DNA of 10,970 nucleotides, taken from IMG/VR virus record IMGVR_UViG_2579778535_000009, positions 1-10,970 of that record. One strand, given 5' to 3'. The position numbers and the translations under genes were made by a program. Source of the stretch: a virus (taxonomy: Duplodnaviria; Heunggongvirae; Uroviricota; Caudoviricetes). Shown piece by piece: positions 1-10,970 of the stretch (positions are counted from its first letter, which is position 1; every line of letters begins with the position of its first letter). The notes below the pieces were generated by a model. The model saw nothing but the letters and a program-made list of their open reading frames with translations, was not told the DNA's origin and did not search any database.

Positions 1-344
1 TTCAGCGTTTCCCGAAAATCAGCACTTCGCGCCCGGATAGTCAGGCGGTCCGGTGCGCCAGTGTGTTCAATCTCGTCCACTGTGAATGCCCCTTTCGGGA
101 AAAGCGGCTGCCCCTTCCAGCCCAGCGCCAGCGTAATAACCGCACCACGGCGCGGCAGCACGATTTTTCCGTCAGCGTCATCCAGCTCCAGATCAAGCTG
201 GTCCGCTTCAAAGCCCCGGTTATCCGTCAGCGTCAAACTCATCAGGCGGTTATCCAGCACAGTGGTGATATCCCTGCCCTCAATACTGATGCTGAATGCG
301 GGAGTTTTGTTGCCTTTGTTAAGCAGTTCAGAGCTGAAATTCAC
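1..344 (-). CDS. D: Phage tail protein D (gpD / late control D family), N-terminal part; ORF continues past the left edge of the window
   Basis: Absent from the ORF track because there is no stop inside the window. The minus-strand frame opens after a TAA at 368-366. The candidate GTG start at 344-342 overlaps the stop of gene A and is preceded by a GGAGG-type Shine-Dalgarno. Translation [76 protein letters not shown]... resembles the conserved N-terminus of P2 gpD / Mu P family as I recall it (recollection, not a search). Plus-strand ORFs 61-372 and 63-425 are its antisense shadows. Confidence 0.5.
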
Positions 345-2110
345 GACAGCAGCCCTCCCACCGTTTTACTGATATCGCTTACCGGCGCACCTGCTTTTTT
401 GTCACCCTGTTGCCTTGCCGCCTGACCAGCCAGCAAGCGAAGTTCACGATAAGCCTGACGCCCCGGAATACCAAAGAAGCGGAATTGCTGAACACGATGC
501 AGAGACGCCCAGGCATTCACGTATTCAGCGTTATCACGCAGAGATTTACCCGTTTCCTTGCTGATCTCGCCAGCCAGACCACGACCGTCAATGTTCTTAC
601 TGATATATTTCGCGATGTAGCTTGTCGGCGTTCCTTTGCGCGGGTTAATCAACTCAGACTTAAAGCGCGGCCCAGTGTTATTGCCCAGCTCCTCGCGGTC
701 TTCACGGATGGCAAACTTACGCAGTAATGCAGTAATGGCACGGCGGTCTTTTTTGCGCATGAAACACAACAGGTGCCAGTGAACTGTGCCGTCATGATGC
801 GGCTCAGCCACCCGCACGCCATACCAGCGCAACCCGGCTTTGTGCATCGCCTTACGAAATGCAGCAAACATGCCGACCAGATAATCGCTGCTTTGTCTTA
901 CCGTCGCGTTTGTCCAGGTCGGGTTTGGTCTGCCGTTATTTAGCGTGGAATGGAAACGCGACGGACAGGTGATAGTGTAGAAAACGGCGCAGTCACCGCG
1001 CATTTCCGCGATAAGCTCCAGACCTTTAACACAGGCCATCATCTCATTGCGGCGATGCGCAGGGTTGCTGCTGCTGGCGTTTACCACATCCTCCATGTCC
1101 AGCGTGTCGCCGTCTTCGTTCACCAGTTCATGAGAACGGAAAAACTCCAGCGACTTACGGCGCTGCTCACGTTTATGCATCACGGCTTCATAGCTGACAT
1201 AAGGAGATGCTTTTTTGCTGACCAGGCAAACAGCGCGCAACTGCTCTTCCCGCCATTCGCAACGCATCTTCCATAATTTCCGATACCACCAGTCGCCGCA
1301 CAACATACGCGCCAGCGAACCCGGAATGAGTTCATAGGGCACGGGTTTACGGCGGTTTCTTTTCCGACGGAGTTGCTCAAACGCAGGTGGGATGACATCC
1401 AGACGCAGGGTTTCCGCCGCCACCTTTTCCCATGTCTTGCGGATTTCTTCTGGCTTAACGTCATCGGTGGCATACAAATCGCCACAAGCTGCATCAAGGC
1501 ACATGCTCATATGCGCAGCTACCAGGGTGGACAGGCGTTTCACATGATCCTGACTCATTTCAGGCAGAATCAGCAGGCCGTCCAGCCCTTCATGGCTTGC
1601 CATAAAGCGAAAAGAAGTGGATAGCTGACTCTCGCGTACATGCTCCAGTCGTTCCAGACATGGCTTAATCGTCTCACGCAAATAGCGGGAATAAGCCTTT
1701 GGCCTGCCCAGGCTGCTGAAGTATTCAATACGTTGCATCAGCGGCTTGCTGATATGGGAAGGCTGGGCGTTGACGTCCGCCAGAATGACCATATCCGGAT
1801 TAAAACGCTGCTGCTCATGCGCCAGCTTTGCCCGACTAATGAGCTTATCCTGCTCCATTTCGCGCTGGACAGGATCACGGGATTCATTAAAGAAATAACG
1901 CTCCCAGACCTGATCACTCAGCGCCTCACGGCGCAGCTGTTCCTGCTCGTTATCGGCAGCGTACAGAGTGATCAGGTTTGAAAGCGCAGAAACCGGCGCA
2001 ACTTCCGCCGGGTCCAGATAAGGGTTAATGGCCTTTTTCGGGCTGTTCCATGAGAATGCTGCGGCGATCTCGTTAAAGCCGCTGCAGTTGTTCATATCAG
2101 CATGGCTCAT
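341..2110 (-). CDS. A: Phage replication initiation protein A (P2 gpA / 186 A family rolling-circle Rep endonuclease), possibly C-terminally shortened
   Basis: 589-aa ORF. Carries an HUH-type motif ([10 protein letters not shown]) and a paired-tyrosine motif ([13 protein letters not shown]) typical of P2 A-type nicking proteins. The start ATG overlaps the dam stop (ATGA). Only about 87 aa follow the YIAKY motif, far fewer than in P2 A as I remember it. Confidence 0.85.
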
Positions 2111-2964
2111 GCACGCACTCCGTACACGGCAGAACTATCCACGCCACACGAAGGATCAAATCCCACCCAGCAGCGCGGCCCGGAAACAGCGATGATTTCT
2201 GTTGCTGATTTACCCTCGCCAGCTGCCACACCGATGCTGCGTTTTACCTTGATATAGTGGTGAGTAAAATTGCGATACAGCGAACGAATCAGGGATGTGT
2301 CACTGTTAGAAACAATGACCGGATGTCCTTCAGATGATCGATGTTCAAGAACGGATGCCAGGTGATACTGGTCATCTTCAGTGAAACCATCAGTGTGATA
2401 GCCGGAAAACGTACCGTCATACGGCGGATCGCAATACACCACATCCCCCGCCTTCAACATCGCCAGCGTTTCATCAAAGCTGGTGCAGATAAACGTTGCC
2501 CGCTGGGCTTTTTCTGCAAATGCGCGAATTTCTTTTTCAGGGAAATACGGATTTTTATAATTACCGTAGGGAATGTTGAAATGCCCACTCTTGTTATAGC
2601 GACATAAACCACGGTAACCGTGACGATTGAGATACAGGAAATATACCGCTTTCATGAAATCAGTAATTTCAGTTGAGTAATTAAACTCCTGCCTTATGTT
2701 GTAATAAGCTACCTCCCTGTTTGCGATCTCAAATAAAACTCTGGCGCGAGATATAAACGATTCACAATCAGCGGCAACCTTTTTATAGAGGTTGATTAAA
2801 TCAGGATTAATATCCGCAACCAGATAGCTGGGGTAATCCGTCTCCATCATCACAGCACAGGAACCCGCGAAAGGTTCAACCAGTCGCGGGCCAGCAGGAA
2901 GATGTTTTTTCAGTTCGGACATTATGGCAGTTTTATTTCCCGCCCATTTCAGGATGGTGCTCAT
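2107..2964 (-). CDS. dam: DNA adenine methyltransferase (Dam family, N6-adenine MTase)
   Basis: The ORF track gives 2107-3024; the likely true start is the ATG at 2964 ([11 protein letters not shown]...), preceded by GGAGG. The N-terminus LKWAGNK...[11 protein letters not shown] and the DPPY motif ([10 protein letters not shown]) match E. coli Dam-type methyltransferases. The start overlaps the stop of the upstream zinc-finger ORF (ATGA). Confidence 0.85.
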
Positions 2965-4000: not shown

Positions 4001-4510
4001 TCACAGCAAACCGAATGAAGCACCGAGGCCAGTTACAGTATCAACTGCACTTGCCATCGCAGGATTAACCTGTAAACGGGCCTGCAATGAAACAGCAGCT
4101 AACGCCATCAGTCGTGTAACAGAGTTAATGCTGCTGATAGCATCACGACGACCTGCACTGGTTTTTACATCGCCAGATACCGCACCTGCAGCAACACGCC
4201 CGATCTCTGCGGTTGCACTCATGACGTAATGTGGCAGTTTCTCTTTTGCCACCTCATTAATCGGTACACATGGCAGGCAGTGAATCTGTGCCAGAAAACC
4301 GTCTACCAGCGTTGAATCTTCCGTCAGATCGGTAAGTAGCCAGATATCTGGCGCATTGAGCTGATGCGGTTGATCTGGGTTGAGTTTGTTTCGCAGAGTC
4401 TGGACATTCATTCCTGCACGTTCTGCCAGCTTCGCCATATTGTGACGAAGTGCAAAAGCTCTACAGGCTTCATCAAAATGCGGGTGTTTGGAAATCTTAT
4501 AATCAAACAT
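4001..4510 (-). CDS. cII: Phage regulatory protein CII (186 CII / CP76 family lysogeny-establishment activator)
   Basis: 169 aa, the same length as 186 CII. The sequence MFDYKISKHPHFDEACRAFALRHNMAKLAERAGMNVQTLRNKLNP... closely matches my recollection of 186 CII, including the HTH region. It is the second gene of the lytic operon. Confidence 0.8.
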   Translation of the reverse strand: MFDYKISKHPHFDEACRAFALRHNMAKLAERAGMNVQTLRNKLNPDQPHQLNAPDIWLLTDLTEDSTLVDGFLAQIHCLPCVPINEVAKEKLPHYVMSATAEIGRVAAGAVSGDVKTSAGRRDAISSINSVTRLMALAAVSLQARLQVNPAMASAVDTVTGLGASFGLL

Positions 4511-4542: not shown

Positions 4543-4785
4543 TTACTTACCAACAATGACGCGGAAGTTGGAATGACCGAGGGATTCACGGACCTGATCG
4601 GTTTTGTACATTAAATAACGCAGGCTTACGCGGCCTTTGTTTTTTTCTTTCTTGACCATGTATTTAGCAAGCTGACCATGGTGAATTTTTTGATACACGG
4701 AGCCGCGGGAGATACCTTCCCATTCCGCGAACTCTGCAGGCGTAGCCATCTCTTTTGGTACACGAATTGAAATATCAGTGCTCAT
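4543..4785 (-). CDS. apl: Apl/Cox-type small HTH protein (excisionase / lytic-operon repressor), first gene of the early operon
   Basis: 80-aa ORF transcribed divergently from cI. HTH-like segment PAEFAEWEGISRGSVYQKIHHGQL. SD GGGAGA upstream of the ATG at 4785. The assignment is mainly positional, by analogy to the 186 apl and P2 cox layout. Confidence 0.55.
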   Translation of the reverse strand: MSTDISIRVPKEMATPAEFAEWEGISRGSVYQKIHHGQLAKYMVKKEKNKGRVSLRYLMYKTDQVRESLGHSNFRVIVGK

Positions 4786-4904: not shown

Positions 4905-5537
4905 ATGATACAGGTAAAGGTTGGAGAGAATACAGGGGGAAGAGAGGCTATCCATAGACTAATGGCAGCCTATGATTTCAAGTCCAGACAGCAACTTTGC
5001 GATCACTTAGGCGCATCAAAAAGCACCATGGCAAACAGATACTTAAGAGATAGTTTTCCTGCAGAGTGGGTGATTCAGTGCGCCTTGGAAACAGGAGTTT
5101 CTTTACTGTGGCTAACCACCGGACAGGGGGAGCCAGGTCCAAACATTGAACCTAAAAAAAATATCAATTCCGTGAACTCCAGCAAGGTTGTACCTCTTTC
5201 TGAACTAGTATCTCCTGAAATTGACAAGGCGACTCTCAACGGTGGTTTATTGGTCGATGCTGGAAAAGCAATCATTGATAGCAGCATACTCCCCTCAGAC
5301 TCAAGCAACCTACTGCTGGTGACTACTTCTGGTGATTCTTATTTAATAGATCGCAACCAAACACCACCAGTAAATGGTATGTGGTTAGTCGATATCGACG
5401 GGATAAAAAGCATCGTTAAATTGACTCGACTCCCGGGAAACAAATTAGTAGTGCATCAGGATGATTCATCGTTTGAGTGCGGTCTGGATGACATTGAGGT
5501 AGTAGGCCGCGCACTGAAAATCATTAAGAGCCTTTGA
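4905..5537 (+). CDS. cI: Immunity repressor CI (186-type)
   Basis: Divergent from apl and immediately upstream of int (cI stop TGA 5535-5537, int ATG 5539). HTH-like segment SRQQLCDHLGASKSTMANRYL. Start uncertain: the ATG at 4905 has AGGA 7 nt upstream; the ATG at 4962 would give 191 aa, close to the size of 186 CI. Confidence 0.7.
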   Translation: MIQVKVGENTGGREAIHRLMAAYDFKSRQQLCDHLGASKSTMANRYLRDSFPAEWVIQCALETGVSLLWLTTGQGEPGPNIEPKKNINSVNSSKVVPLSELVSPEIDKATLNGGLLVDAGKAIIDSSILPSDSSNLLLVTTSGDSYLIDRNQTPPVNGMWLVDIDGIKSIVKLTRLPGNKLVVHQDDSSFECGLDDIEVVGRALKIIKSL

Positions 5538-5538
5538 T

Positions 5539-6570
5539 ATGACCATCAGAAAACAGCCGAACGGAAAATGGTTGTGTGAGTGCTATCCCAATGGACGCAA
5601 TGGCAAGCGCGTGCGTAAGCAATTTGCCACGAAAGGCGAAGCCATTGCGTTTGAAAGCTTCACAATGGAAGAAGTGAATAAAAAACCGTGGTTGGGTGAA
5701 AAGGATGATCGGCGACGCCTATCAGAATTAATTGAGCTTTGGTATTCCCTGTATGGTCAGACACTCGCAGACCCCAAGCGCCTCATGGCGAAACTTAGAA
5801 TTATCTGTAATGGTCTAGGCGACCCCATCGCCTCTGAGCTGACAGCCGGAGACTTTACGAAATACCGCGAAGCACGGTTAAAAGGTGAAATACGAAATGA
5901 AGATGGCACGCTTATGTCGCCCGTTAAGCCCCGCACGGTAAACCTTGAACAGCGCAATCTATCATCGGTGTTCGGTACATTAAAAAAACTAGGACACTGG
6001 TCAGCACCAAACCCGCTGGCAGGACTTCCGACCTTCAAAATTGCCGAAGGTGAGCTGGCTTTTCTTTCCACGGACGAAATCAAGCGCCTGTTGGCGGCAT
6101 GTGCTGAATCTCAAAGCCCTAGCTTACTAATGATTGCAAAAATATGCCTAGCTACTGGCGCACGGTGGAGTGAAGCAGAAAATCTGCAGGGCCATCAGTT
6201 ATCCAAATACCGCATCACTTATACCAAGACGAAGGGCAAGAAAAACCGTACCGTGCCAATATCTCAGGATCTTTACAACGAACTCCCTAAAAACAGAGGA
6301 AGGCTATTCACCCCATGCAGAAAAGCCTTTGAACGGGCAGTAAAACGAGCTGGTATTGAACTGCCAGAGGGACAATGCACCCACGTTCTACGCCATACAT
6401 TCGCCAGCCATTTCATGATGAACGGCGGAAACATACTGGTACTGCGCGATATTTTGGGCCATGCCGATATAAAAATGACGATGATTTACGCCCATTTTTC
6501 TCCAGACCATCTGGAAGATGCAGTAACGAAAAACCCTTTGAACTTTATATACTTGTCGAATAACATGTAA
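5539..6570 (+). CDS. int: Tyrosine integrase (P2/186 Int family)
   Basis: 343 aa. The N-terminus (NGKWLCECYPNGRNGKRVRKQFATKGEAIAFE) resembles P2-type Int. Catalytic motifs ARWSE, HVLRHTFASH and MIYAHF (Tyr) are present. It reads toward the ssrA fragment. Confidence 0.85.
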   Translation: MTIRKQPNGKWLCECYPNGRNGKRVRKQFATKGEAIAFESFTMEEVNKKPWLGEKDDRRRLSELIELWYSLYGQTLADPKRLMAKLRIICNGLGDPIASELTAGDFTKYREARLKGEIRNEDGTLMSPVKPRTVNLEQRNLSSVFGTLKKLGHWSAPNPLAGLPTFKIAEGELAFLSTDEIKRLLAACAESQSPSLLMIAKICLATGARWSEAENLQGHQLSKYRITYTKTKGKKNRTVPISQDLYNELPKNRGRLFTPCRKAFERAVKRAGIELPEGQCTHVLRHTFASHFMMNGGNILVLRDILGHADIKMTMIYAHFSPDHLEDAVTKNPLNFIYLSNNM

Positions 6571-6610
6571 CTTATAATGTAAGTACACAAAAGTGATCTT
6601 AATCTTAAAT

Positions 6611-7606
6611 ATGAAACCTAATTTAATTTCACGTAAACAGTACCAACACCTCAAAAATGAGTTAAATAGACTTGAGAGCTTACCATATAGACGAGGAAAC
6701 AACCCAACCAACCTCAGAATATTAAAACTAAGAGAAGATCTAACAAACTCTCTTGTTGAATCCAGAAAAAGAAATTCAAAAAAAATTAATGGAGGAAATG
6801 TTAGCTGTATAATATGCAAGAAAAATTTCAAAAGTGCTCATGGCCTATATGAGCACTATCGCGCCAAGCATAGCAATATGATTGAACACCCTACCTCATT
6901 GTTTAATAAAGAAATAAATGGCAATACAACACTGCTTGAAAGCATTTCGCATCCTGTCACAAAAGGTATACCAATAGCAGAACACGATAAAAAAATATCA
7001 TCCATTACGCTAAACAGGGAAACTAAATATTTCAATGTAGATGCGTATAATCTGGCATGCCTTTCATTAACAAAAAGTGAAGCAATAAAAATCGCTAAAG
7101 ATGAATTATTATCAAGGCAGTTTCTTGGACAAAAAAACACTCTAGAACCTACTCTACCGCCAGTCATATTTATAAATCCCTCTGATACAATTAGTATACC
7201 AGTTGTCACAAAAGGCAATACTCATCTGCAAACAGTATTACAGCGTGACTCTGGCGAACAGGTTGACTTTAAAAAAAGGGTTCTAAAAAACTTCTCAAAT
7301 GTATGCGCAATAACAGGTTACAACCTCCCAGTATTGCAGGCATGTCACCTTGAACCATTTTCTCAGACCCAAAACCATAGAACCAACAATGGAATACCTC
7401 TTGAACCTACCCTTCATGCCTTGCTTGACCGAGGTCTACTAGCCATACATCCAGATAATTTAACTATTCATTTTGCTATCGATTGCTATTACAAAAATAT
7501 ATATGAAGGAAAAAATATCAAACCTCATAAGATTGATTTAGATAAAAATTCACTGCTAATAATTTGGAAGAACTTTCTTTTGAATGTTAAAAACAGCCAA
7601 CCGTAA
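6611..7606 (+). CDS. AT-rich cargo gene: protein with an N-terminal C2H2-type zinc finger and a C-terminal HNH-type (HNH_2-like) nuclease domain; candidate defence or accessory nuclease
   Basis: The ORF track gives a GTG start at 6593; the first ATG is at 6611. Zinc finger: CIICKKNFKSAHGLYEHYRAKH (C-x2-C-x12-H-x4-H). C-terminus: CAITGYNLPVLQACHLEPF...NNGIPLEPTLHALLDRGLLAIHPD, which matches the CAITG...HI.P...NGL.L...H.LFDRG pattern of HNH_2 nucleases as I recall it. Base composition is visibly much more AT-rich than the flanking phage genes. No obvious SD. Confidence 0.6.
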   Translation: MKPNLISRKQYQHLKNELNRLESLPYRRGNNPTNLRILKLREDLTNSLVESRKRNSKKINGGNVSCIICKKNFKSAHGLYEHYRAKHSNMIEHPTSLFNKEINGNTTLLESISHPVTKGIPIAEHDKKISSITLNRETKYFNVDAYNLACLSLTKSEAIKIAKDELLSRQFLGQKNTLEPTLPPVIFINPSDTISIPVVTKGNTHLQTVLQRDSGEQVDFKKRVLKNFSNVCAITGYNLPVLQACHLEPFSQTQNHRTNNGIPLEPTLHALLDRGLLAIHPDNLTIHFAIDCYYKNIYEGKNIKPHKIDLDKNSLLIIWKNFLLNVKNSQP

Positions 7607-7732
7607 GTTAGCCTAAAATTGGCGACAACTTGGCGGCAGAGCATTAAAAATGCGTAAAACGGATAAACACAGGATAATAGTAACACACTGTTTTTAAACG
7701 CAAACTACTGTTTTCATTGTATTAAAAATAGT

Positions 7733-7777
7733 ATGTAGGAATTTCGGACGCGGGTTCAACTCCCGCCAGCTCCACCA
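7733..7777 (+). ncRNA. ssrA: 3'-terminal 45 nt of tmRNA gene ssrA (T-arm and acceptor 3' strand ending CCA); attachment-site copy, not a full gene
   Basis: ATGTAGGAATTTCGGACGCGGGTTCAACTCCCGCCAGCTCCACCA matches the 3' end of E. coli ssrA as I recall it. Upstream sequence is AT-rich coding DNA with no tmRNA 5' domain (no GGGGCTGATTCTGG about 360 nt upstream). Confidence 0.8.
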
Positions 7778-7810
7778 ATTTTTGATATATTGAAGTTCAG
7801 TGAAGTCTAT

Positions 7811-7845
7811 CAAGCCCGCATGGAACCAGCCTTGCGGGCTTTTTT
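7811..7845 (+). terminator. Rho-independent terminator-like hairpin (AAGCCCGCA ... TGCGGGCTT followed by TTTTTT)
   Basis: Perfect 9-bp inverted repeat with a T-run, about 35 nt downstream of the ssrA CCA end and upstream of the intA start. Confidence 0.45.
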
Positions 7846-7902: not shown

Positions 7903-7946
7903 GGGACCCAACACAAAGGGTCCAAAACATGAGGGTCCCAAACATG
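7903..7946. repeat. Three copies of a GGG(A/T)CC(C)AAA motif at exact 15-bp spacing (7903, 7918, 7933), the first inverted relative to the others, overlapping the intA RBS and start
   Basis: Seen directly: TTGGGACCCAA cacaaa GGGTCCAAAACATG a GGGTCCCAAACATGG. Candidate protein-binding array. Confidence 0.4.
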
Positions 7947-9173
7947 GCAAAAATCGCTAAGAAGCTCACTGACACTGAAATCAAAAGCACCAAACCTGCC
8001 GAGAAAGAGGTTAACCTTTTTGACGGCGATGGTTTGCTCCTGCGAATCGCCCCCTTAGCGAAGGGAGGAAAGAAAAATTGGTATTTCAGATATGCAGTGC
8101 CTGTGACCAAAAAGCGAACTAAGGTGAGCTTAGGAACCTATCCTCACCTTACACTTGCGAAGGCACGAGCTTTACGTGATGAGTACTTGTCGTTGCTTGC
8201 AAATGGTATAGACCCACAAGTTCATAACACCCACAAAGCCAATGCCCTTAAGGATGCAACGGAACATACATTTCAAGCAGTAGCCAAGAAGTGGCTTGAT
8301 GAGAAAGTCAAAACGTCAGGCATCTCCCAGGATCATGCTAACGACATCTGGCGAAGCCTAGAGAGAAATATCTTTCCAACGTTGGGTGATACCCCCATTA
8401 AGGAGATTCGCCCTAAAATGCTTAAACAGCATTTAGACCCCATAGAAAAACGAGGTGTCCTTGAAACACTTCGCCGCGTCATATCCCGCCTGAATGAAAT
8501 TTTCCGCTATGCAGCAACAGAAGAACTCATAGAATTCAATCCGGCTGACAACCTGGGGCAACGGTTCAGCAAGCCAAAAAAACAGAATATGCCAGCATTA
8601 CCCCCTTCCGAACTCCCCCGCTTCCTGGTTGCTCTAAACAATGCTTCTATCCGTTTAGAAACAAGGCTACTGATTGAGTGGCAACTTCTCACATGGGTTC
8701 GCCCTGGTGAAGCTGTTCGCACAAGATGGTCAGATATTGATATAGAAACCAGCATGTGGAACATCCCGGCGGAGTTTATGAAAATGAAGAAGCCTCACAA
8801 AGTTCCACTGAGCAAAGAATCTTTGCGAGTCTTGGATTCAATGAAAGCCATCAGCGGGCATAGAGAGTGGGTTTTTCCCAGTATCAAAGCTCCACTCAAT
8901 CACATGCATGAACAAACAGCTAATGCGGCTATAATCCGTATGGGCTTCGGAGGTGAGCTTGTAGCTCATGGTATGCGATCAATCGCTAGAACGGCGGCTG
9001 AGGAGTGTGGCAAGTTTAGAACTGATGTCTTAGAAGCCGCCCTTGCCCACTCGAAAAAAGATGAAATAATTGCAGCCTACAATCGTGCAGAGTATCTCAC
9101 AGAACGTGTGGTTCTCATGCAATGGTGGAGTGACTATGTTTCGTCTCAAAAATACAAAGTTATTGCCGCATAA
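7944..9173 (+). CDS. intA: Tyrosine integrase, P4/CP4-57 IntA family (N-terminal DUF4102-like arm-binding domain)
   Basis: The ORF track gives 7800-9173, but that start would run through the terminator hairpin. The ATG at 7944 (MAKIAKKLTDTEIKSTKP...) has GAGGG 8 nt upstream. Conserved blocks DDIWRSLERNIFP, WQLLTWVRPGEA, HGMRSIARTAA, DVLEAALAH and YNRAEYL match my recollection of CP4-57 IntA. It lies immediately downstream of the ssrA 3' end, as in CP4-57. Confidence 0.85.
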   Translation: MAKIAKKLTDTEIKSTKPAEKEVNLFDGDGLLLRIAPLAKGGKKNWYFRYAVPVTKKRTKVSLGTYPHLTLAKARALRDEYLSLLANGIDPQVHNTHKANALKDATEHTFQAVAKKWLDEKVKTSGISQDHANDIWRSLERNIFPTLGDTPIKEIRPKMLKQHLDPIEKRGVLETLRRVISRLNEIFRYAATEELIEFNPADNLGQRFSKPKKQNMPALPPSELPRFLVALNNASIRLETRLLIEWQLLTWVRPGEAVRTRWSDIDIETSMWNIPAEFMKMKKPHKVPLSKESLRVLDSMKAISGHREWVFPSIKAPLNHMHEQTANAAIIRMGFGGELVAHGMRSIARTAAEECGKFRTDVLEAALAHSKKDEIIAAYNRAEYLTERVVLMQWWSDYVSSQKYKVIAA

Positions 9174-9455
9174 CTCTTCCATGATGGGTTAACTATCTTG
9201 ATTTATTTGAAGAATTAATGATCACACCATTAACCTATGTGGACTAAGCATAGCCATTTACAAATGGGTACCTTGAGGCCACATAACGAAAGCTGTCGGT
9301 CATATCAGCTAAATAATTCACATCTCTTCTCGATTATCATACACCTCGAAGAACTACCAAATTCGCTCTAATCAATGATAAAACAGTTGAATTCGGTTAA
9401 AATTTGATCAATTTTATCCTCTACATTGTATTGAATCATCCATGAGGTTTTGTGC

Positions 9456-10970
9456 ATGGCTAGCGGAAATGAAAAAAATCATAGAGTTAGGGTCGCACAG
9501 TACTTGAGGATGTCTACCGACCATCAGCAATATTCTTTACATAATCAGTCTGAATATATCAAAGATTATGCTGAAAAGAACAATATGGAAATCGCTTATA
9601 CCTACGATGATGCAGGTAAGAGCGGAGTCAGTATCGTAGGCAGGCATTCTTTGCAGCAGTTACTTAGCGATGTAGAACAAAAGAAAATAGATATACAGGC
9701 TGTATTATTTTATGATGTGAGCCGTTTTGGTCGTTTTCAAAATAGTGATGAAGCTGCATATTATTCCTTTCTATTTGAAAGAAATGGTGTAGATCTTATA
9801 TATTGTTCCGAACCTATACCCACTAAAGATTTCCCTTTAGAGTCCTCTGTTATACTGAATATAAAAAGATCAAGTGCTGCATATCACAGCAGGAATCTAT
9901 CTGAAAAGGTATTTATAGGGCAAGTAAATTTAATAAAGCTTGGTTATCATCAAGGCGGTATGGCTGGTTATGGGCTGAGACGTCTTTTAGTAGACGAAAA
10001 TGGCATAGCTAAAGAAATATTGAATTTCCGCAAAAGAAAGAGTATTCAAACAGATAGGGTAATATTAATTCCGGGACCAAAAAATGAAATAAAAATTGTA
10101 AATAGAATCTATGATCTCTTTATAGATAGTAACGTCCCAGAATTCATTATTGCTGAGAGATTAAATGAACAGAGCATACCTGCAGAAAATGGAACATCAT
10201 GGACTCGTGCAAAAATACATCAAATTTTGACAAATGAAAAATATATTGGAAACAACATATATAACAAAACCTCATCTAAACTAAAAAGTAGGCTTGTAAA
10301 AAACCCCAAACATGAATGGATTAGATGTGACAAGGCATATAAACCAATTATTTCAAAGAAAAAATATAATAAAGCTCAAGAAATAATTCAGCTCCGATCC
10401 ATTCATTTGACTAATGAAGATCTATTAGAAAAGCTAAAAGAAAAATTAGAATCTAATGGAAAACTATCAGGCTTTATCATTGATGAAGATGATACAGGCC
10501 CTTCATCTTCTGTTTATAGAACCCGATTTGGTGGTCTTTTAAGAGCATATACTTTGATTGGTTATAAGCCAGAACATGATTACAGCTATCTCCAAATAAA
10601 TGAAGCACTAAGATCATTTTACTCAGAGATAATTGAGGATTTTAAGGGCGAAATATTAAAAAGTAACTGTCATATAGACGAGTATAAATATTACCCAATG
10701 CTTTACATCAATGATGAGTTTTTAATTTCCGTCCTTGTTACTAAATGCATACATATGAAATCAGGTAAACTTAGATGGAAAGTCCGGTTTGATAACTCAC
10801 AGAAAGCAGACATAACAATTGTTATACGAATGAATTCACAAAATATTTCACCTCTTGATTTTTATATCATACCAAAGATTGAAAACGAATATAGTAAAAT
10901 GTGTATGTGGATTTGCCCCTATATTTCCAGACATCTGTTATCACTTAACCCATTACAAGCCCGCTGCCGC
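9456..10970 (+). CDS. Large serine recombinase (resolvase-type catalytic domain plus recombinase domain), AT-rich; 3' end beyond the window
   Basis: Not in the ORF track. I translated 505 codons from the ATG at 9456 to the window end with no stop; GAGG lies 8 nt upstream. The N-terminus VAQYLRMSTDHQ...YDDAGKSGVS...LQQLL...SRFGR carries serine-recombinase catalytic motifs. The segment ILIPGPKNEIKIVNRIYDLF...AERLNEQSIP...GTSWTRAKIHQILTNEKYIGNNIYNK fits the recombinase domain of large serine recombinases. Confidence 0.75.
   Translation, partial: MASGNEKNHRVRVAQYLRMSTDHQQYSLHNQSEYIKDYAEKNNMEIAYTYDDAGKSGVSIVGRHSLQQLLSDVEQKKIDIQAVLFYDVSRFGRFQNSDEAAYYSFLFERNGVDLIYCSEPIPTKDFPLESSVILNIKRSSAAYHSRNLSEKVFIGQVNLIKLGYHQGGMAGYGLRRLLVDENGIAKEILNFRKRKSIQTDRVILIPGPKNEIKIVNRIYDLFIDSNVPEFIIAERLNEQSIPAENGTSWTRAKIHQILTNEKYIGNNIYNKTSSKLKSRLVKNPKHEWIRCDKAYKPIISKKKYNKAQEIIQLRSIHLTNEDLLEKLKEKLESNGKLSGFIIDEDDTGPSSSVYRTRFGGLLRAYTLIGYKPEHDYSYLQINEALRSFYSEIIEDFKGEILKSNCHIDEYKYYPMLYINDEFLISVLVTKCIHMKSGKLRWKVRFDNSQKADITIVIRMNSQNISPLDFYIIPKIENEYSKMCMWICPYISRHLLSLNPLQARCR

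What the first reader, a model, noticed from the sequence alone, without database searches (positions are those of the whole stretch)
6571..7732. AT-rich zinc-finger/HNH nuclease gene inserted between the prophage integrase and its ssrA attachment site
The int-to-att interval of P2/186-type phages is normally short. Here it holds a roughly 1-kb gene of sharply lower GC content encoding a textbook C2H2 zinc finger (uncommon in bacteria) fused to an HNH_2-like nuclease domain, with an unassigned middle region. A single-gene nuclease cargo at a prophage end is a plausible anti-phage or anti-plasmid effector, or a type IV restriction-like enzyme. I do not recognise this domain combination as a described defence system.
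Basis: partly seen in the sequence, partly recalled or inferred. Interest (0 to 1): 0.7.

Follow-up and report, generated by a model that had tools for sequence, protein, structure and literature searches.

The report
Zinc-finger HNH nuclease cargo in prophage
A decayed P2/Fels-2-type prophage at the E. coli ssrA site carries, between its integrase and its attachment site, a rare uncharacterised gene that joins a C2H2 zinc finger to a restriction-type HNH nuclease; related phages keep interchangeable cargo at this spot, including one proven anti-phage gene, so it is a good but untested candidate for a new single-gene defence nuclease.

Summary
A 331-aa ORF (6611-7606, +; GC 0.34) lies between the Fels-2-type integrase (5539-6570) and a 46-bp copy of the ssrA 3' end (7733-7778). 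It has an HNH_2 domain above Pfam threshold. All four C2H2 ligands are invariant among its close full-length relatives. dN/dS is 0.24 (0.11 in the nuclease domain).

The gene is a discrete 1.08-kb cassette. Relatives with the same integrase and att arm carry, at the same borders, nothing (Fels-2), the validated anti-phage gene GapS1, or one of three other unknown ORFs. All cargoes have GC 0.32-0.35. Of 221 complete E. coli genomes with this integrase type, 4 carry this gene.

It matches no named PADLOC system, and I found no paper on it. The most likely function is a lysogen-expressed defence endonuclease, possibly type IV-like. That function, and what the sensor recognises, are inferred, not shown.

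The parts
4905..5537 (+). cI repressor, first gene of the lysogenic operon that runs into int and the cargo gene
   Evidence: Pfam Phage_CI_repr 5.4e-31 and Phage_CI_C 5.6e-28; annotated as phage repressor protein CI in WS4437A-1
5539..6570 (+). Fels-2/SopEPhi/RE-2010-type tyrosine integrase that uses ssrA as its attachment site. Its last codons (after about 6537-6551) belong to the exchangeable cassette.
   Evidence: Pfam Int_N and Phage_integrase; 92-97% aa identity to Felsduovirus-type integrases; homology to relatives breaks at 6537-6551
6540..7619 (+). Exchangeable cargo cassette of about 1.08 kb, GC 0.34. Fels-2 has 32 bp between the same two borders. Other relatives carry GapS1 or other single ORFs there.
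   Evidence: blastn break points and junction alignment
6611..7606 (+). Zinc-finger/HNH_2 nuclease ORF, 331 aa (an alternative GTG start lies at 6593)
   Evidence: ORF list; RefSeq CDS WP_001413720.1; full-length match to phrog_20585, function unknown; dN/dS 0.24 against the 79%-identical homologue
6629..6754 (+). N-terminal helical hairpin, aa 7-48 (includes the LESLPYRRG motif). Present only in the close homologues; role unknown, possibly oligomerisation.
   Evidence: AlphaFold helices 8-23 and 31-48, pLDDT 75-94; conserved in A1
6794..6880 (+). Single C2H2 zinc finger, aa 62-90, with ligands C66, C69, H82, H87. A basic stretch RKRNSKK precedes it.
   Evidence: Spacing C-x2-C-x12-H-x4-H; ligands invariant in A1; homologues significant on C2H2 Pfam models; family profile against PDB fingers E 1.6e-7; strand-strand-helix predicted
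7028..7141 (+). Conserved three-helix module, aa 140-177 (FNxxAYxLAxxSLTKxEAIKIAKDE), with no detectable known homologue. Flanked by disordered linkers at aa 91-137 and 178-196.
   Evidence: Y146 and A158 invariant, A149 and A162 nearly invariant, across the 22-sequence family; pLDDT about 90; no Pfam or PDB sequence hit
7223..7597 (+). HNH_2 nuclease domain with a family-specific C-terminal extension, aa 205-329. H246 is the predicted general base (codon 7346-7348); N260, H269 and D273 complete the active site.
7620..7732 (+). Conserved attP arm. It begins with the direct repeat TGGCGACAACTTGGCGGCAG (7621-7640), which I take to be Int arm-type sites (inferred).
   Evidence: 78-85% identical across all cargo variants and Fels-2
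7733..7778 (+). att core: 46-bp duplicate of the ssrA (tmRNA) 3' end, forming attR
   Evidence: Rfam tmRNA 3' end, 35 bits; 46/46 identity to the intact ssrA at attL of WS4437A-1
7812..7845 (+). Original ssrA terminator hairpin and T-run, now displaced to the right of the prophage
   Evidence: Terminator-like site; structured 3' part of the spurious 'IsrM' Rfam alignment

Best explanation
The gene is accessory cargo of a Fels-2/186-type temperate phage. It sits in the int-att slot, which this phage group uses for interchangeable single-gene cargo; one known occupant is an anti-phage system.

It encodes a metal-dependent DNA endonuclease built like the NTP-independent type IV restriction enzymes: a nucleic-acid-binding 'sensor' part tethered by flexible linkers to a C-terminal HNH domain. 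Here the sensor part comprises a helical hairpin, one C2H2 zinc finger preceded by a basic stretch, and a conserved three-helix module. In the TagI/VcaM4I class the HNH domain dimerises and cuts near the bound site.

No promoter-like or terminator-like signal separates it from int, which ends 40 bp upstream. It is therefore probably transcribed with cI-int in the lysogen.

The proposed role is to cut incoming foreign DNA (other phages, perhaps plasmids) while sparing Dam/Dcm-methylated host DNA. The most likely basis is recognition of a DNA modification or nucleic-acid form that the host lacks.

Shown: gene anatomy, cassette borders, active-site conservation, purifying selection, fold similarity, slot variability.
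Inferred: co-transcription, dimerisation, DNA cleavage, the defence role and the nature of the target.
For: 1. The nuclease domain is intact and constrained.
- HNH_2 is above the Pfam threshold.
- H246, N260, H269 and D273 are invariant across 22 relatives at 24-82% identity.
- dN/dS is 0.11 in this domain.

2. The nearest solved folds are modification-dependent restriction enzymes.
- Foldseek E 5e-4 to 7.5e-3 for the same three.
- The family profile hits VcaM4I at E 8.7e-7.
- TagI's catalytic H229/N245/H254/D258, with Ala before the first His, map onto H246/N260/H269/D273. In this protein Cys precedes the first His; most relatives have Ala there.

3. The 'sensor, disordered linker, HNH' layout matches the mobile-domain architecture described for TagI and VcaM4I.

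4. The slot behaves as a defence hotspot.
- The same borders hold GapS1 (NF047931, 401 bits against a cut-off of 320) in many E. coli prophages. GapS1 is experimentally anti-phage.
- A survey of P2-like phages names int-att as a minor defence hotspot.
- All cargoes are single ORFs with GC 0.32-0.35.

5. The gene is rare and accessory: 4 of 221 E. coli genomes with this integrase type.

6. Homologues sit in mobile or defence contexts: the same slot in two other P2-like prophages, beside an element with Multi_ubiq, ThiF and BubE domains and a UvrD/PD-(D/E)XK gene, in another prophage, and in an island with an integrase, a methyltransferase, a RES gene and a second HNH_2 gene.

7. The ORF stays intact in prophage remnants that have lost their structural genes: this window, WS4437A-1, and a 4.8-kb remnant between att repeats.

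8. No promoter-like or terminator-like site lies on the + strand between int and the ORF.
Against: - There is no experimental phenotype for this family. No paper mentions the protein or its PHROG.
- No recognised modified-base reader (SRA, EVE/PUA, SBD, winged helix) is detectable in the N-terminal 200 residues. 'Type IV' therefore rests on the nuclease domain alone.
- The family's zinc fingers score about as well on RNA- or dsRNA-associated models (zf-met, zf-C2H2_jaz) and on ribosome-biogenesis and RNA-editing fingers as on DNA-binding ones. The ligand is open.
- The TagI structural zinc site is not conserved (only C232 remains), so details of the fold may differ.
- One homologue (Serratia, P0036) lies among ordinary metabolic genes.
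- Shorter relatives of the nuclease domain occur in lytic Salmonella phages, where a defence role for the host is not the obvious reading.
- Position in a hotspot is circumstantial. The three other cargo ORF families tested match no PADLOC or NCBIfam model.
Confidence: 0.55

Rival explanations
1. Trigger-activated (abortive-infection or dormancy) nuclease. The enzyme stays inactive in the lysogen and is switched on by a phage protein or an infection cue. It then degrades DNA indiscriminately, host DNA included, instead of recognising foreign DNA directly.
For: - GapS1, which occupies the same slot, works this way: a capsid protein triggers its nuclease-superfamily effector and the cell goes dormant.
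- No modified-base reader is detectable.
- A lone nuclease with no immunity partner has to be restrained somehow.
- The variable N-terminal parts of the wider family would suit protein sensing.
Against: - The closest nuclease domains belong to direct-acting type IV enzymes.
- The conserved modules upstream of the nuclease are a zinc finger preceded by a basic stretch, which is typical of nucleic-acid binding.
- Nothing in the sequence suggests an autoinhibitory or ligand-binding domain.
Confidence: 0.2
2. Selfish homing-type endonuclease. The gene spreads by cutting cassette-free alleles of the int-att region and gives the host or phage no benefit.
For: - HNH nucleases joined to small DNA-binding modules are typical of phage homing endonucleases (general knowledge).
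- The gene is sporadic and low in GC.
- Relatives of the nuclease domain occur in lytic phages and giant viruses.
Against: - Four unrelated cargo gene families, GapS1 among them, use exactly the same left and right borders. Exchange is therefore a property of the slot (recombination in the int 3' end and the att arm), not of this nuclease.
- The nuclease domain groups with restriction enzymes, not with solved homing HNH enzymes.
- Homologues also sit outside this slot, in islands.
- The ORF is kept intact in dead prophage remnants that can no longer spread.
Confidence: 0.08
3. Restriction half of a type II-like restriction-modification pair. The prophage's own Dam-type methyltransferase (2107-2963, minus strand), or the host Dam, protects resident DNA, and the nuclease cuts unmethylated incoming DNA.
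For: - A D12-class adenine methyltransferase is encoded 3.6 kb away in the same prophage.
- HNH_2 includes type II enzymes such as HphI, AlwI and BbrI.
- One PADLOC hit is to an HNH model labelled type II.
- One distant homologue has a C5 methyltransferase 1.7 kb away.
Against: - The same methyltransferase gene is present in relatives irrespective of cargo, and it belongs to the early operon, not to the cassette.
- Five of the six homologue contexts examined have no methyltransferase next to the gene.
- The cassette moves as a single ORF.
Confidence: 0.07
4. A phage-serving function rather than defence, for example a nuclease that processes RNA, RNA:DNA hybrids or host DNA for the phage's own cycle. 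The zinc finger would act as an A-form duplex binder.
For: - The family fingers match dsRNA- or RNA-associated finger models (zf-C2H2_jaz 1.5e-6, zf-met 4e-7). They also match fingers of the RNA-editing protein MP42 and of ZNF622, Bud20 and ZNF593.
- Short relatives lie in early-gene regions of lytic phages 7-11 and SE131.
Against: - The gene is absent from about 98% of prophages with this integrase type, so it is not needed for the phage cycle.
- It is placed after cI-int, not in a lytic operon.
- It is retained in remnants with no lytic genes.
Confidence: 0.07

Closest known systems
TagI (SRA-HNH) and VcaM4I (EVE-HNH), NTP-independent modification-dependent (type IV) restriction endonucleases
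   Same: - The family profile matches VcaM4I at E 8.7e-7.
- The catalytic pattern is the same: His general base, then Asn, then His nine residues on, then Asp four residues further.
- The overall plan is the same: an N-terminal binding part tethered to a C-terminal HNH.
- Like them, the gene is solitary, with no methyltransferase inside the cassette.
   Different: - There is no SRA, EVE or PUA reader. In its place are a helical hairpin, a C2H2 finger and a three-helix module with no known homologue.
- TagI's structural zinc site (CxxC plus CxxD) is not conserved.
- Identity is only 18-19% over about 130 aligned residues.
- Modification dependence is untested.
EcoKMcrA (e14 prophage) and ScoMcrA/SprMcrA/EcoWI (phosphorothioate- or 5mC-dependent HNH enzymes)
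   Same: - All are solitary HNH nucleases, and EcoKMcrA is prophage-borne (EcoKMcrA's e14 location is from my own knowledge).
- Weak NCBIfam hit to PT-DNA_restrict over the HNH core.
   Different: - NF045808 scores 23 bits against a cut-off of 180.
- No sulfur-binding or McrA N-terminal domain is detectable.
GapS1 (GAPS1), a single-protein anti-phage system
   Same: - It occupies the same int-att cassette position in sister prophages at ssrA.
- It is also a single ORF and low in GC.
- Its effector also belongs to a nuclease superfamily.
   Different: - It is an unrelated protein: PD-(D/E)xK rather than HNH, 508 aa.
- GapS1 has a demonstrated phenotype and trigger; this gene has neither.
Exclusion cargo of phage P2 (old, tin, fun/Z) and the P2/P4 defence hotspots
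   Same: Both are accessory, lysogen-beneficial genes carried at fixed variable positions of P2-like genomes. The int-att position is listed as a minor hotspot holding 3% of P2 systems.
   Different: The main P2 hotspots are between gpA and gpQ and within the tail genes. This gene family is not among the described systems: PADLOC gives only generic HNH hits.
Classical eukaryotic-type C2H2 zinc fingers, including the U1/matrin/JAZ-like subclass
   Same: - The ligand spacing and the hydrophobic Phe and Leu positions match.
- A strand-strand-helix fold is predicted.
- There are significant profile matches to PDB fingers and, for homologues, to Pfam finger models.
   Different: - It is a single finger in a bacterial or phage protein, fused to a nuclease.
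- This protein on its own stays below every Pfam C2H2 gathering score.
- Zinc binding and the ligand (DNA or RNA) are untested.

Membership tests
HNH_2 / His-Me finger nucleases (PF13391) | Profile score above Pfam's gathering threshold | tested here: met
   42 bits against a cut-off of 21, E 8.7e-11; all 22 family members match
HNH_2 / His-Me finger nucleases (PF13391) | Catalytic His (general base), structural Asn, and metal-binding His/Asp are present | tested here: met
   H246, N260, H269 and D273 are invariant in A2; they map onto TagI H229/N245/H254/D258
HNH_2 / His-Me finger nucleases (PF13391) | Beta-beta-alpha-metal fold | tested here: met
   [not shown]
Type IV (modification-dependent) HNH restriction enzymes, TagI/VcaM4I/McrA class | Nuclease domain of the same structural class | tested here: met
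   [not shown]
Type IV (modification-dependent) HNH restriction enzymes, TagI/VcaM4I/McrA class | A recognised modified-base reader domain (SRA, EVE/PUA, SBD, McrA N-domain, DpnI-like winged helix) | tested here: not met
   Residues 1-200 give no Pfam, NCBIfam or PDB-sequence hit apart from the C2H2 finger
Type IV (modification-dependent) HNH restriction enzymes, TagI/VcaM4I/McrA class | Solitary gene without a cognate methyltransferase | tested here: met
   The cassette is a single ORF. Five of six homologue contexts lack an adjacent methyltransferase. The prophage dam gene is present whatever the cargo.
Type IV (modification-dependent) HNH restriction enzymes, TagI/VcaM4I/McrA class | Cleavage requires modified DNA | not testable with these tools
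   Needs in vitro digestion of C, 5mC, 5hmC, glucosyl-hmC, 6mA, phosphorothioate and deazaguanine substrates
Phosphorothioate-dependent SBD-HNH enzymes (NF045808 PT-DNA_restrict) | Whole-protein score above the curated cut-off, including the sulfur-binding domain | tested here: not met
   23.1 bits against a cut-off of 180, and the match covers only the HNH core at aa 222-288 of the 337-aa GTG-start query (216-282 in 331-aa numbering)
Classical C2H2 zinc finger | C-x2-4-C-x12-H-x3-5-H spacing with conserved hydrophobic positions; ligands conserved in homologues | tested here: met
   C66, C69, H82, H87, with F at +4 and L at +10 after the second Cys. The ligands are invariant in A1.
Classical C2H2 zinc finger | Pfam gathering score reached | tested here: inconclusive
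   This protein scores 11.6-16.5 bits against cut-offs of 20.6-30. Homologues reach E 1e-7 to 5.5e-7 on zf-C2H2_4, zf-C2H2 and zf-met. The family profile scores E 1.6e-7 against MP42 fingers.
Classical C2H2 zinc finger | Zinc binding | not testable with these tools
   Needs metal analysis of purified protein and C66A/C69A mutants
Named anti-phage defence systems (PADLOC-DB v2.0.0) | Match to a system-specific protein model | tested here: not met
   Only two generic 'HNH' models hit, and only over aa 208-289 of the 337-aa GTG-start query (E 3.6e-9 and 2.5e-5). Newer DefenseFinder or PADLOC releases could not be run.
Cargo of the P2-like int-att defence hotspot | Lies between int and att, and is replaced by other genes or by nothing in relatives with the same flanks | tested here: met
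   The borders are the same in six variants. Alternatives are empty (Fels-2), GapS1, and ORFs of 418, 401-403 and 353 aa.
Cargo of the P2-like int-att defence hotspot | Confers resistance to phages | not testable with these tools
   Plaque assays are required
Homing endonuclease | Insertion borders specific to the endonuclease gene and its own target site | tested here: not met
   Unrelated cargo genes share the identical borders

The most novel reading that the evidence does not exclude
The zinc-finger/HNH_2 proteins form a new family of single-protein immune nucleases. Only about 25-30 clusters at 50% identity show this layout among the 150 best hits from 1.84 billion representatives. In this reading a classical C2H2 finger (in some members of the U1/JAZ-like kind that binds A-form duplexes), together with a novel three-helix module, serves as the sensor. 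That sensor would recognise a modified DNA, an RNA:DNA hybrid or another infection-specific nucleic acid, and would direct a TagI-class HNH dimer to it. This would be a new reader class for type IV-like restriction, and a functional use of a eukaryote-style zinc finger in bacterial immunity.
Probability: 0.25. Interest if true: 0.7.

Novelty: new variant of a known kind. Interest (0 to 1): 0.5.

Why it matters
If the gene protects against phages or plasmids, it adds a compact 331-aa single-gene system to the defence repertoire, with a sensor unlike any described for restriction enzymes. It would also give experimental backing to the int-att slot of Fels-2/P2-like phages as a defence hotspot: three further cargo ORF families of unknown function sit at the same borders.

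A nuclease that reads a particular DNA modification or nucleic-acid form through a small finger module could be useful as a reagent, as the type IV enzymes from the TagI/VcaM4I class have been.

If it does not protect, it is still a clean example of cassette exchange at a prophage end, but only of routine interest.

Tried and rejected
- **ARAGORN:** found no tmRNA because only the last 46 bases are present. Rfam and direct comparison with the intact ssrA settled the point.
- **Rfam 'IsrM' hit:** the match at 7768-7845 (42 bits against a gathering score of 376) is just the ssrA end plus its terminator, so I rejected it.
- **First AlphaFold run:** with the six close homologues it was unusable beyond residue 90 (mean pLDDT 38). 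A 22-sequence alignment raised this to 75.7.
- **Word-indexed protein search:** it found only 6 clusters with the single protein and 11 with the family profile. The exhaustive representative search was needed to see the wider family.
- **AFDB50 fold library:** not available.
- **Scan of species-representative genomes:** With a narrower one it returned only relatives of the C-terminal domain and no full-length zinc-finger homologue. An example from Kluyvera lacks the finger.
- **Slot cargoes from relatives:** PADLOC, NCBIfam and Pfam named only GapS1.
- **Literature:** searches for the accession, the PHROG id, and C2H2 plus HNH plus anti-phage found no description of this family.
- **Hypotheses considered and set aside:** pairing with the prophage Dam methylase (the methylase is present whatever the cargo); homing (the borders are shared with unrelated cargo); a core phage function (the gene is in 4 of 221 genomes with this integrase type).
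Full report
**1. What is in the window**

The left two thirds of the window is the early/lysogeny region of a 186/Fels-2-type (P2-like) prophage:
- replication gene A, minus strand, ending at 2110;
- a D12-class adenine methylase and small early genes;
- cII (4001-4510, minus) and apl/Rha (4543-4785, minus);
- cI (4905-5537, plus) and a tyrosine integrase (5539-6570, plus).

The integrase is 92-97% identical in protein to those of Fels-2, SopEPhi, RE-2010 and related Klebsiella and Escherichia phages.

To the right of the target ORF lie the last 46 bases of ssrA (7733-7778). They are identical to the 3' end of the intact ssrA found at the other prophage end in E. coli WS4437A-1, a genome 99.7-99.8% identical to the window here. 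Next come the displaced ssrA terminator (7812-7845) and a second, P4-type integrase (7944-9173) that opens another island.

**2. The ORF**

RefSeq and the closest homologues start at ATG 6611, giving 331 aa and a stop at 7604-7606. A GTG at 6593 is a possible alternative start. GC is 0.34, against about 0.43-0.49 over the integrase gene and 0.52-0.58 further left.

It is a real gene under purifying selection. Against a 79%-identical homologue, dN/dS is 0.24 overall, 0.11 in the nuclease domain and 0.3-0.6 in the linkers.

Pfam HNH_2 is significant (42 bits, cut-off 21). The zinc-finger models are individually sub-threshold for this protein. Four lines of evidence nevertheless support the finger:
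- The four ligands (C66, C69, H82, H87) are invariant in the six close full-length homologues.
- Several members of the wider family are significant on C2H2 models, at E 1e-7 to 5.5e-7.
- The family profile hits PDB zinc fingers at E 1.6e-7.
- AlphaFold predicts a strand-strand-helix unit there.

**3. Family and rarity**

An exhaustive profile search of 1.84 billion cluster representatives found 3059 proteins sharing the HNH_2 domain at E up to 1e-3. Only two clusters share the full length.

About 25-30 of the best-scoring clusters have the same plan. Each has one or two C2H2 fingers, the motif (Y/F)(F/Y)Nx(E/D)AYxLAxRxMTxxEAxKLAKDE, a variable linker, and the HNH_2 domain with a C-terminal extension LT(I/V)HFxxDC...EGK. 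In the alignment of 22 of them, Y146, A158, Q217, F220, C232, H246, N260, G261, H269, D273, I279, P281, F288 and L315 are invariant.

The exact protein cluster occurs in E. coli, with members in Klebsiella and Salmonella, always named only 'HNH endonuclease'. It matches phrog_20585 over its full length; that family has no assigned function. No full-length homologue turned up among the best 80 loci from one-genome-per-species representatives.

**4. Structure**

With the 22-sequence alignment AlphaFold gives mean pLDDT 75.7, in a beads-on-a-string layout:

| Segment | Residues | pLDDT |
|---|---|---|
| Helical hairpin | 7-48 | 75-94 |
| Zinc finger | 62-90 | about 80 |
| Three-helix module | 143-177 | about 90 |
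| HNH domain | 205-329 | >90 |
| Low-confidence linkers | 50-61, 91-137, 178-196 | <50 |

The TagI paper defines H229 (general base, preceded by Ala), N245, H254 and D258 as essential. The corresponding residues here are H246, N260, H269 and D273, with identical N-to-H (9) and H-to-D (4) spacing, and they are invariant across the family. In this protein Cys precedes H246; most relatives have Ala there. TagI's structural zinc site is not conserved here.

TagI and VcaM4I both dimerise through the HNH domain. They carry a modified-base reader that is mobile (TagI) or anchored through linker helices (VcaM4I), and TagI cuts at a distance from the bound base. The present protein has the same plan with a different, unclassified front end.

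**5. The slot**

Comparison with seven loci that share the integrase and att arm shows homology breaking at 6537-6551, inside the last codons of int just after the residues AVTKNP. It resumes at 7615-7620, at a direct repeat TGGCGRCAnnnTGGCGGCAG.

| Occupant between these borders | Evidence |
|---|---|
| Nothing: 32 bp in Fels-2 | |
| GapS1, 508 aa (NF047931, 401 bits against cut-off 320), in many E. coli genomes | |
| 418-aa ORF | |
| 401-403-aa ORF (RE-2010 gp01, SopEPhi orfY, Cartapus gp33) | |
| 353-aa ORF | |
| The zinc-finger/HNH gene | this window |

Every cargo is a single ORF of GC 0.32-0.35 that begins within about 60 bp of the int stop. The three ORF families of unknown function match no PADLOC or NCBIfam model.

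GapS1 is an experimentally validated anti-phage system, and E. coli homologues were also shown to protect. A 2026 survey of thousands of P2-like prophages reports that 3% of their defence systems lie between int and att, and calls this region a possible hotspot.

Of 5426 complete E. coli genomes, 221 carry this integrase type and 4 carry the zinc-finger/HNH cargo, all four with a nearly identical int allele. One of them (ET734) has it on a full-length prophage, so the gene travels with a complete phage genome. A 79%-identical homologue ends a 33.7-kb contig, about the size of a P2-like genome, that carries the same early and lysogeny genes.

**6. Context of homologues**

- A 49%-identical homologue follows an IS-truncated integrase inside a 4.8-kb prophage remnant bounded by att repeats.
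- Another follows an IS3 element next to genes with Multi_ubiq, ThiF and BubE domains and a UvrD/PD-(D/E)XK gene.
- More distant members lie in a prophage, and in an island with an integrase, a C5 methyltransferase, a RES gene, a second HNH_2 gene and an H-NS gene.
- One lies among ordinary Serratia genes.
- Shorter proteins with only the nuclease domain occur in lytic Salmonella phages 7-11 and SE131 and in giant viruses.

**7. State of the prophage in the window**

Bases 1-381 match the gpD/gpU tail region and are fused at about 380 to the interior of gene A. This prophage has therefore lost its head, tail and lysis genes, and has a truncated A (589 aa against 804 aa). Even so, the cI, int and zinc-finger/HNH ORFs are open. 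The WS4437A-1 copy is also deleted, to about 19 kb. Retention in remnants fits a host-beneficial gene, but is weak evidence on its own.

**8. Expression**

No sigma-70-like promoter or intrinsic terminator was found on the plus strand between int and the ORF, and the gap is 40 bp. The simplest reading is co-transcription with cI-int from the lysogenic promoter, that is, expression in the lysogen. This is inferred.

**9. Interpretation**

The best-supported account is a lysogen-expressed cargo endonuclease that excludes foreign DNA. Its nuclease module belongs to the class used by type IV restriction enzymes, and its sensor is new.

I rate 'active nuclease cargo in a variable hotspot' as very likely, 'defence or exclusion function' at about 0.55-0.6, and 'modification-dependent' at about 0.3.

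The main uncertainty is the sensor. No known modified-base reader is present. The family's fingers resemble RNA- or dsRNA-associated fingers about as much as DNA-binding ones. A trigger-activated abortive mechanism like that of GapS1 is the strongest rival. Homing, a Dam-linked restriction-modification pair and a phage-serving role are less likely, for the reasons given under the rival explanations.

**10. Novelty**

The protein is already in databases as a generic 'HNH endonuclease'. I found no paper describing it or the C2H2-plus-HNH_2 combination. It is not a member of any named PADLOC system. It is best described as a new variant of a known kind: a solitary HNH restriction-type nuclease with an unprecedented front end, in a hotspot that has already been noted.

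Noticed in passing
window 1-381 and 341-2110: The first 381 bases are tail-region DNA (gpD/gpU, 96.9% identical to WS4437A-1), fused at about 380 to the interior of replication gene A. The A ORF is cut to 589 aa against 804 aa. The prophage in this window is therefore a remnant of roughly 9-10 kb with no head, tail or lysis genes, yet cI, int and the nuclease gene are intact.
   Followed up: partly
window 7768-7845: The Rfam 'IsrM' match (42 bits, gathering score 376) consists only of the ssrA 3' end plus the ssrA terminator hairpin, with 261 model positions skipped. It is not an IsrM gene.
   Followed up: yes
window 7944-9173 and 9150-10970: A second, P4-type integrase (Arm-DNA-bind_3, Phage_int_M, Phage_integrase) sits directly after attR, followed by DNA of GC 0.29-0.38. 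This indicates another island stacked at ssrA. In WS4437A-1 it continues with a serine recombinase and two ParB-like genes.
   Followed up: partly
window 7621-7640; L002, L006, L018-L020 at the same position: The right border of every cargo variant is the direct repeat TGGCGRCA-nnn-TGGCGGCAG, followed by GCATTAAAAA. These are probably Int arm-type binding sites of attP. The left border lies inside the last codons of int, so each cargo brings its own int C-terminus.
   Followed up: partly
L019 2529-3785, L020 2527-3732 (also RE-2010 gp01, SopEPhi orfY, Cartapus gp33), L002 3162-4223: Three further single-ORF cargo families (418, 401-403 and 353 aa; GC 0.32-0.34) occupy the same slot and have no significant Pfam match and no PADLOC or NCBIfam match. 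By position they are also untested defence candidates.
   Followed up: partly
L101 (E. coli ET734, NZ_CP100922.1 1152500-1192000): Part of a second copy of the prophage, with the same integrase protein, lies in tandem at ssrA (the stretch fetched ends inside it). In that copy the cargo region is annotated as two short ORFs, one of them named 'HNH endonuclease'. Many genes in this record are marked frameshifted, which may reflect sequencing errors.
   Followed up: no
L007 2192-3511: The related prophage carrying the 79%-identical homologue has an extra PAPS_reduct-domain gene between replication gene A and the dam methylase. This is another variable position in the early operon.
   Followed up: no
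L017 2252-2950 (Salmonella phage 7-11) and the SE131 homologue: Lytic Salmonella phages encode proteins of 189-232 aa that are 33-41% identical to the nuclease domain and its C-terminal extension, and too short (189-232 aa) for the full zinc-finger architecture. The SeKF_80 copy is annotated 'ParB-like partition protein', which looks like a misannotation.
   Followed up: partly
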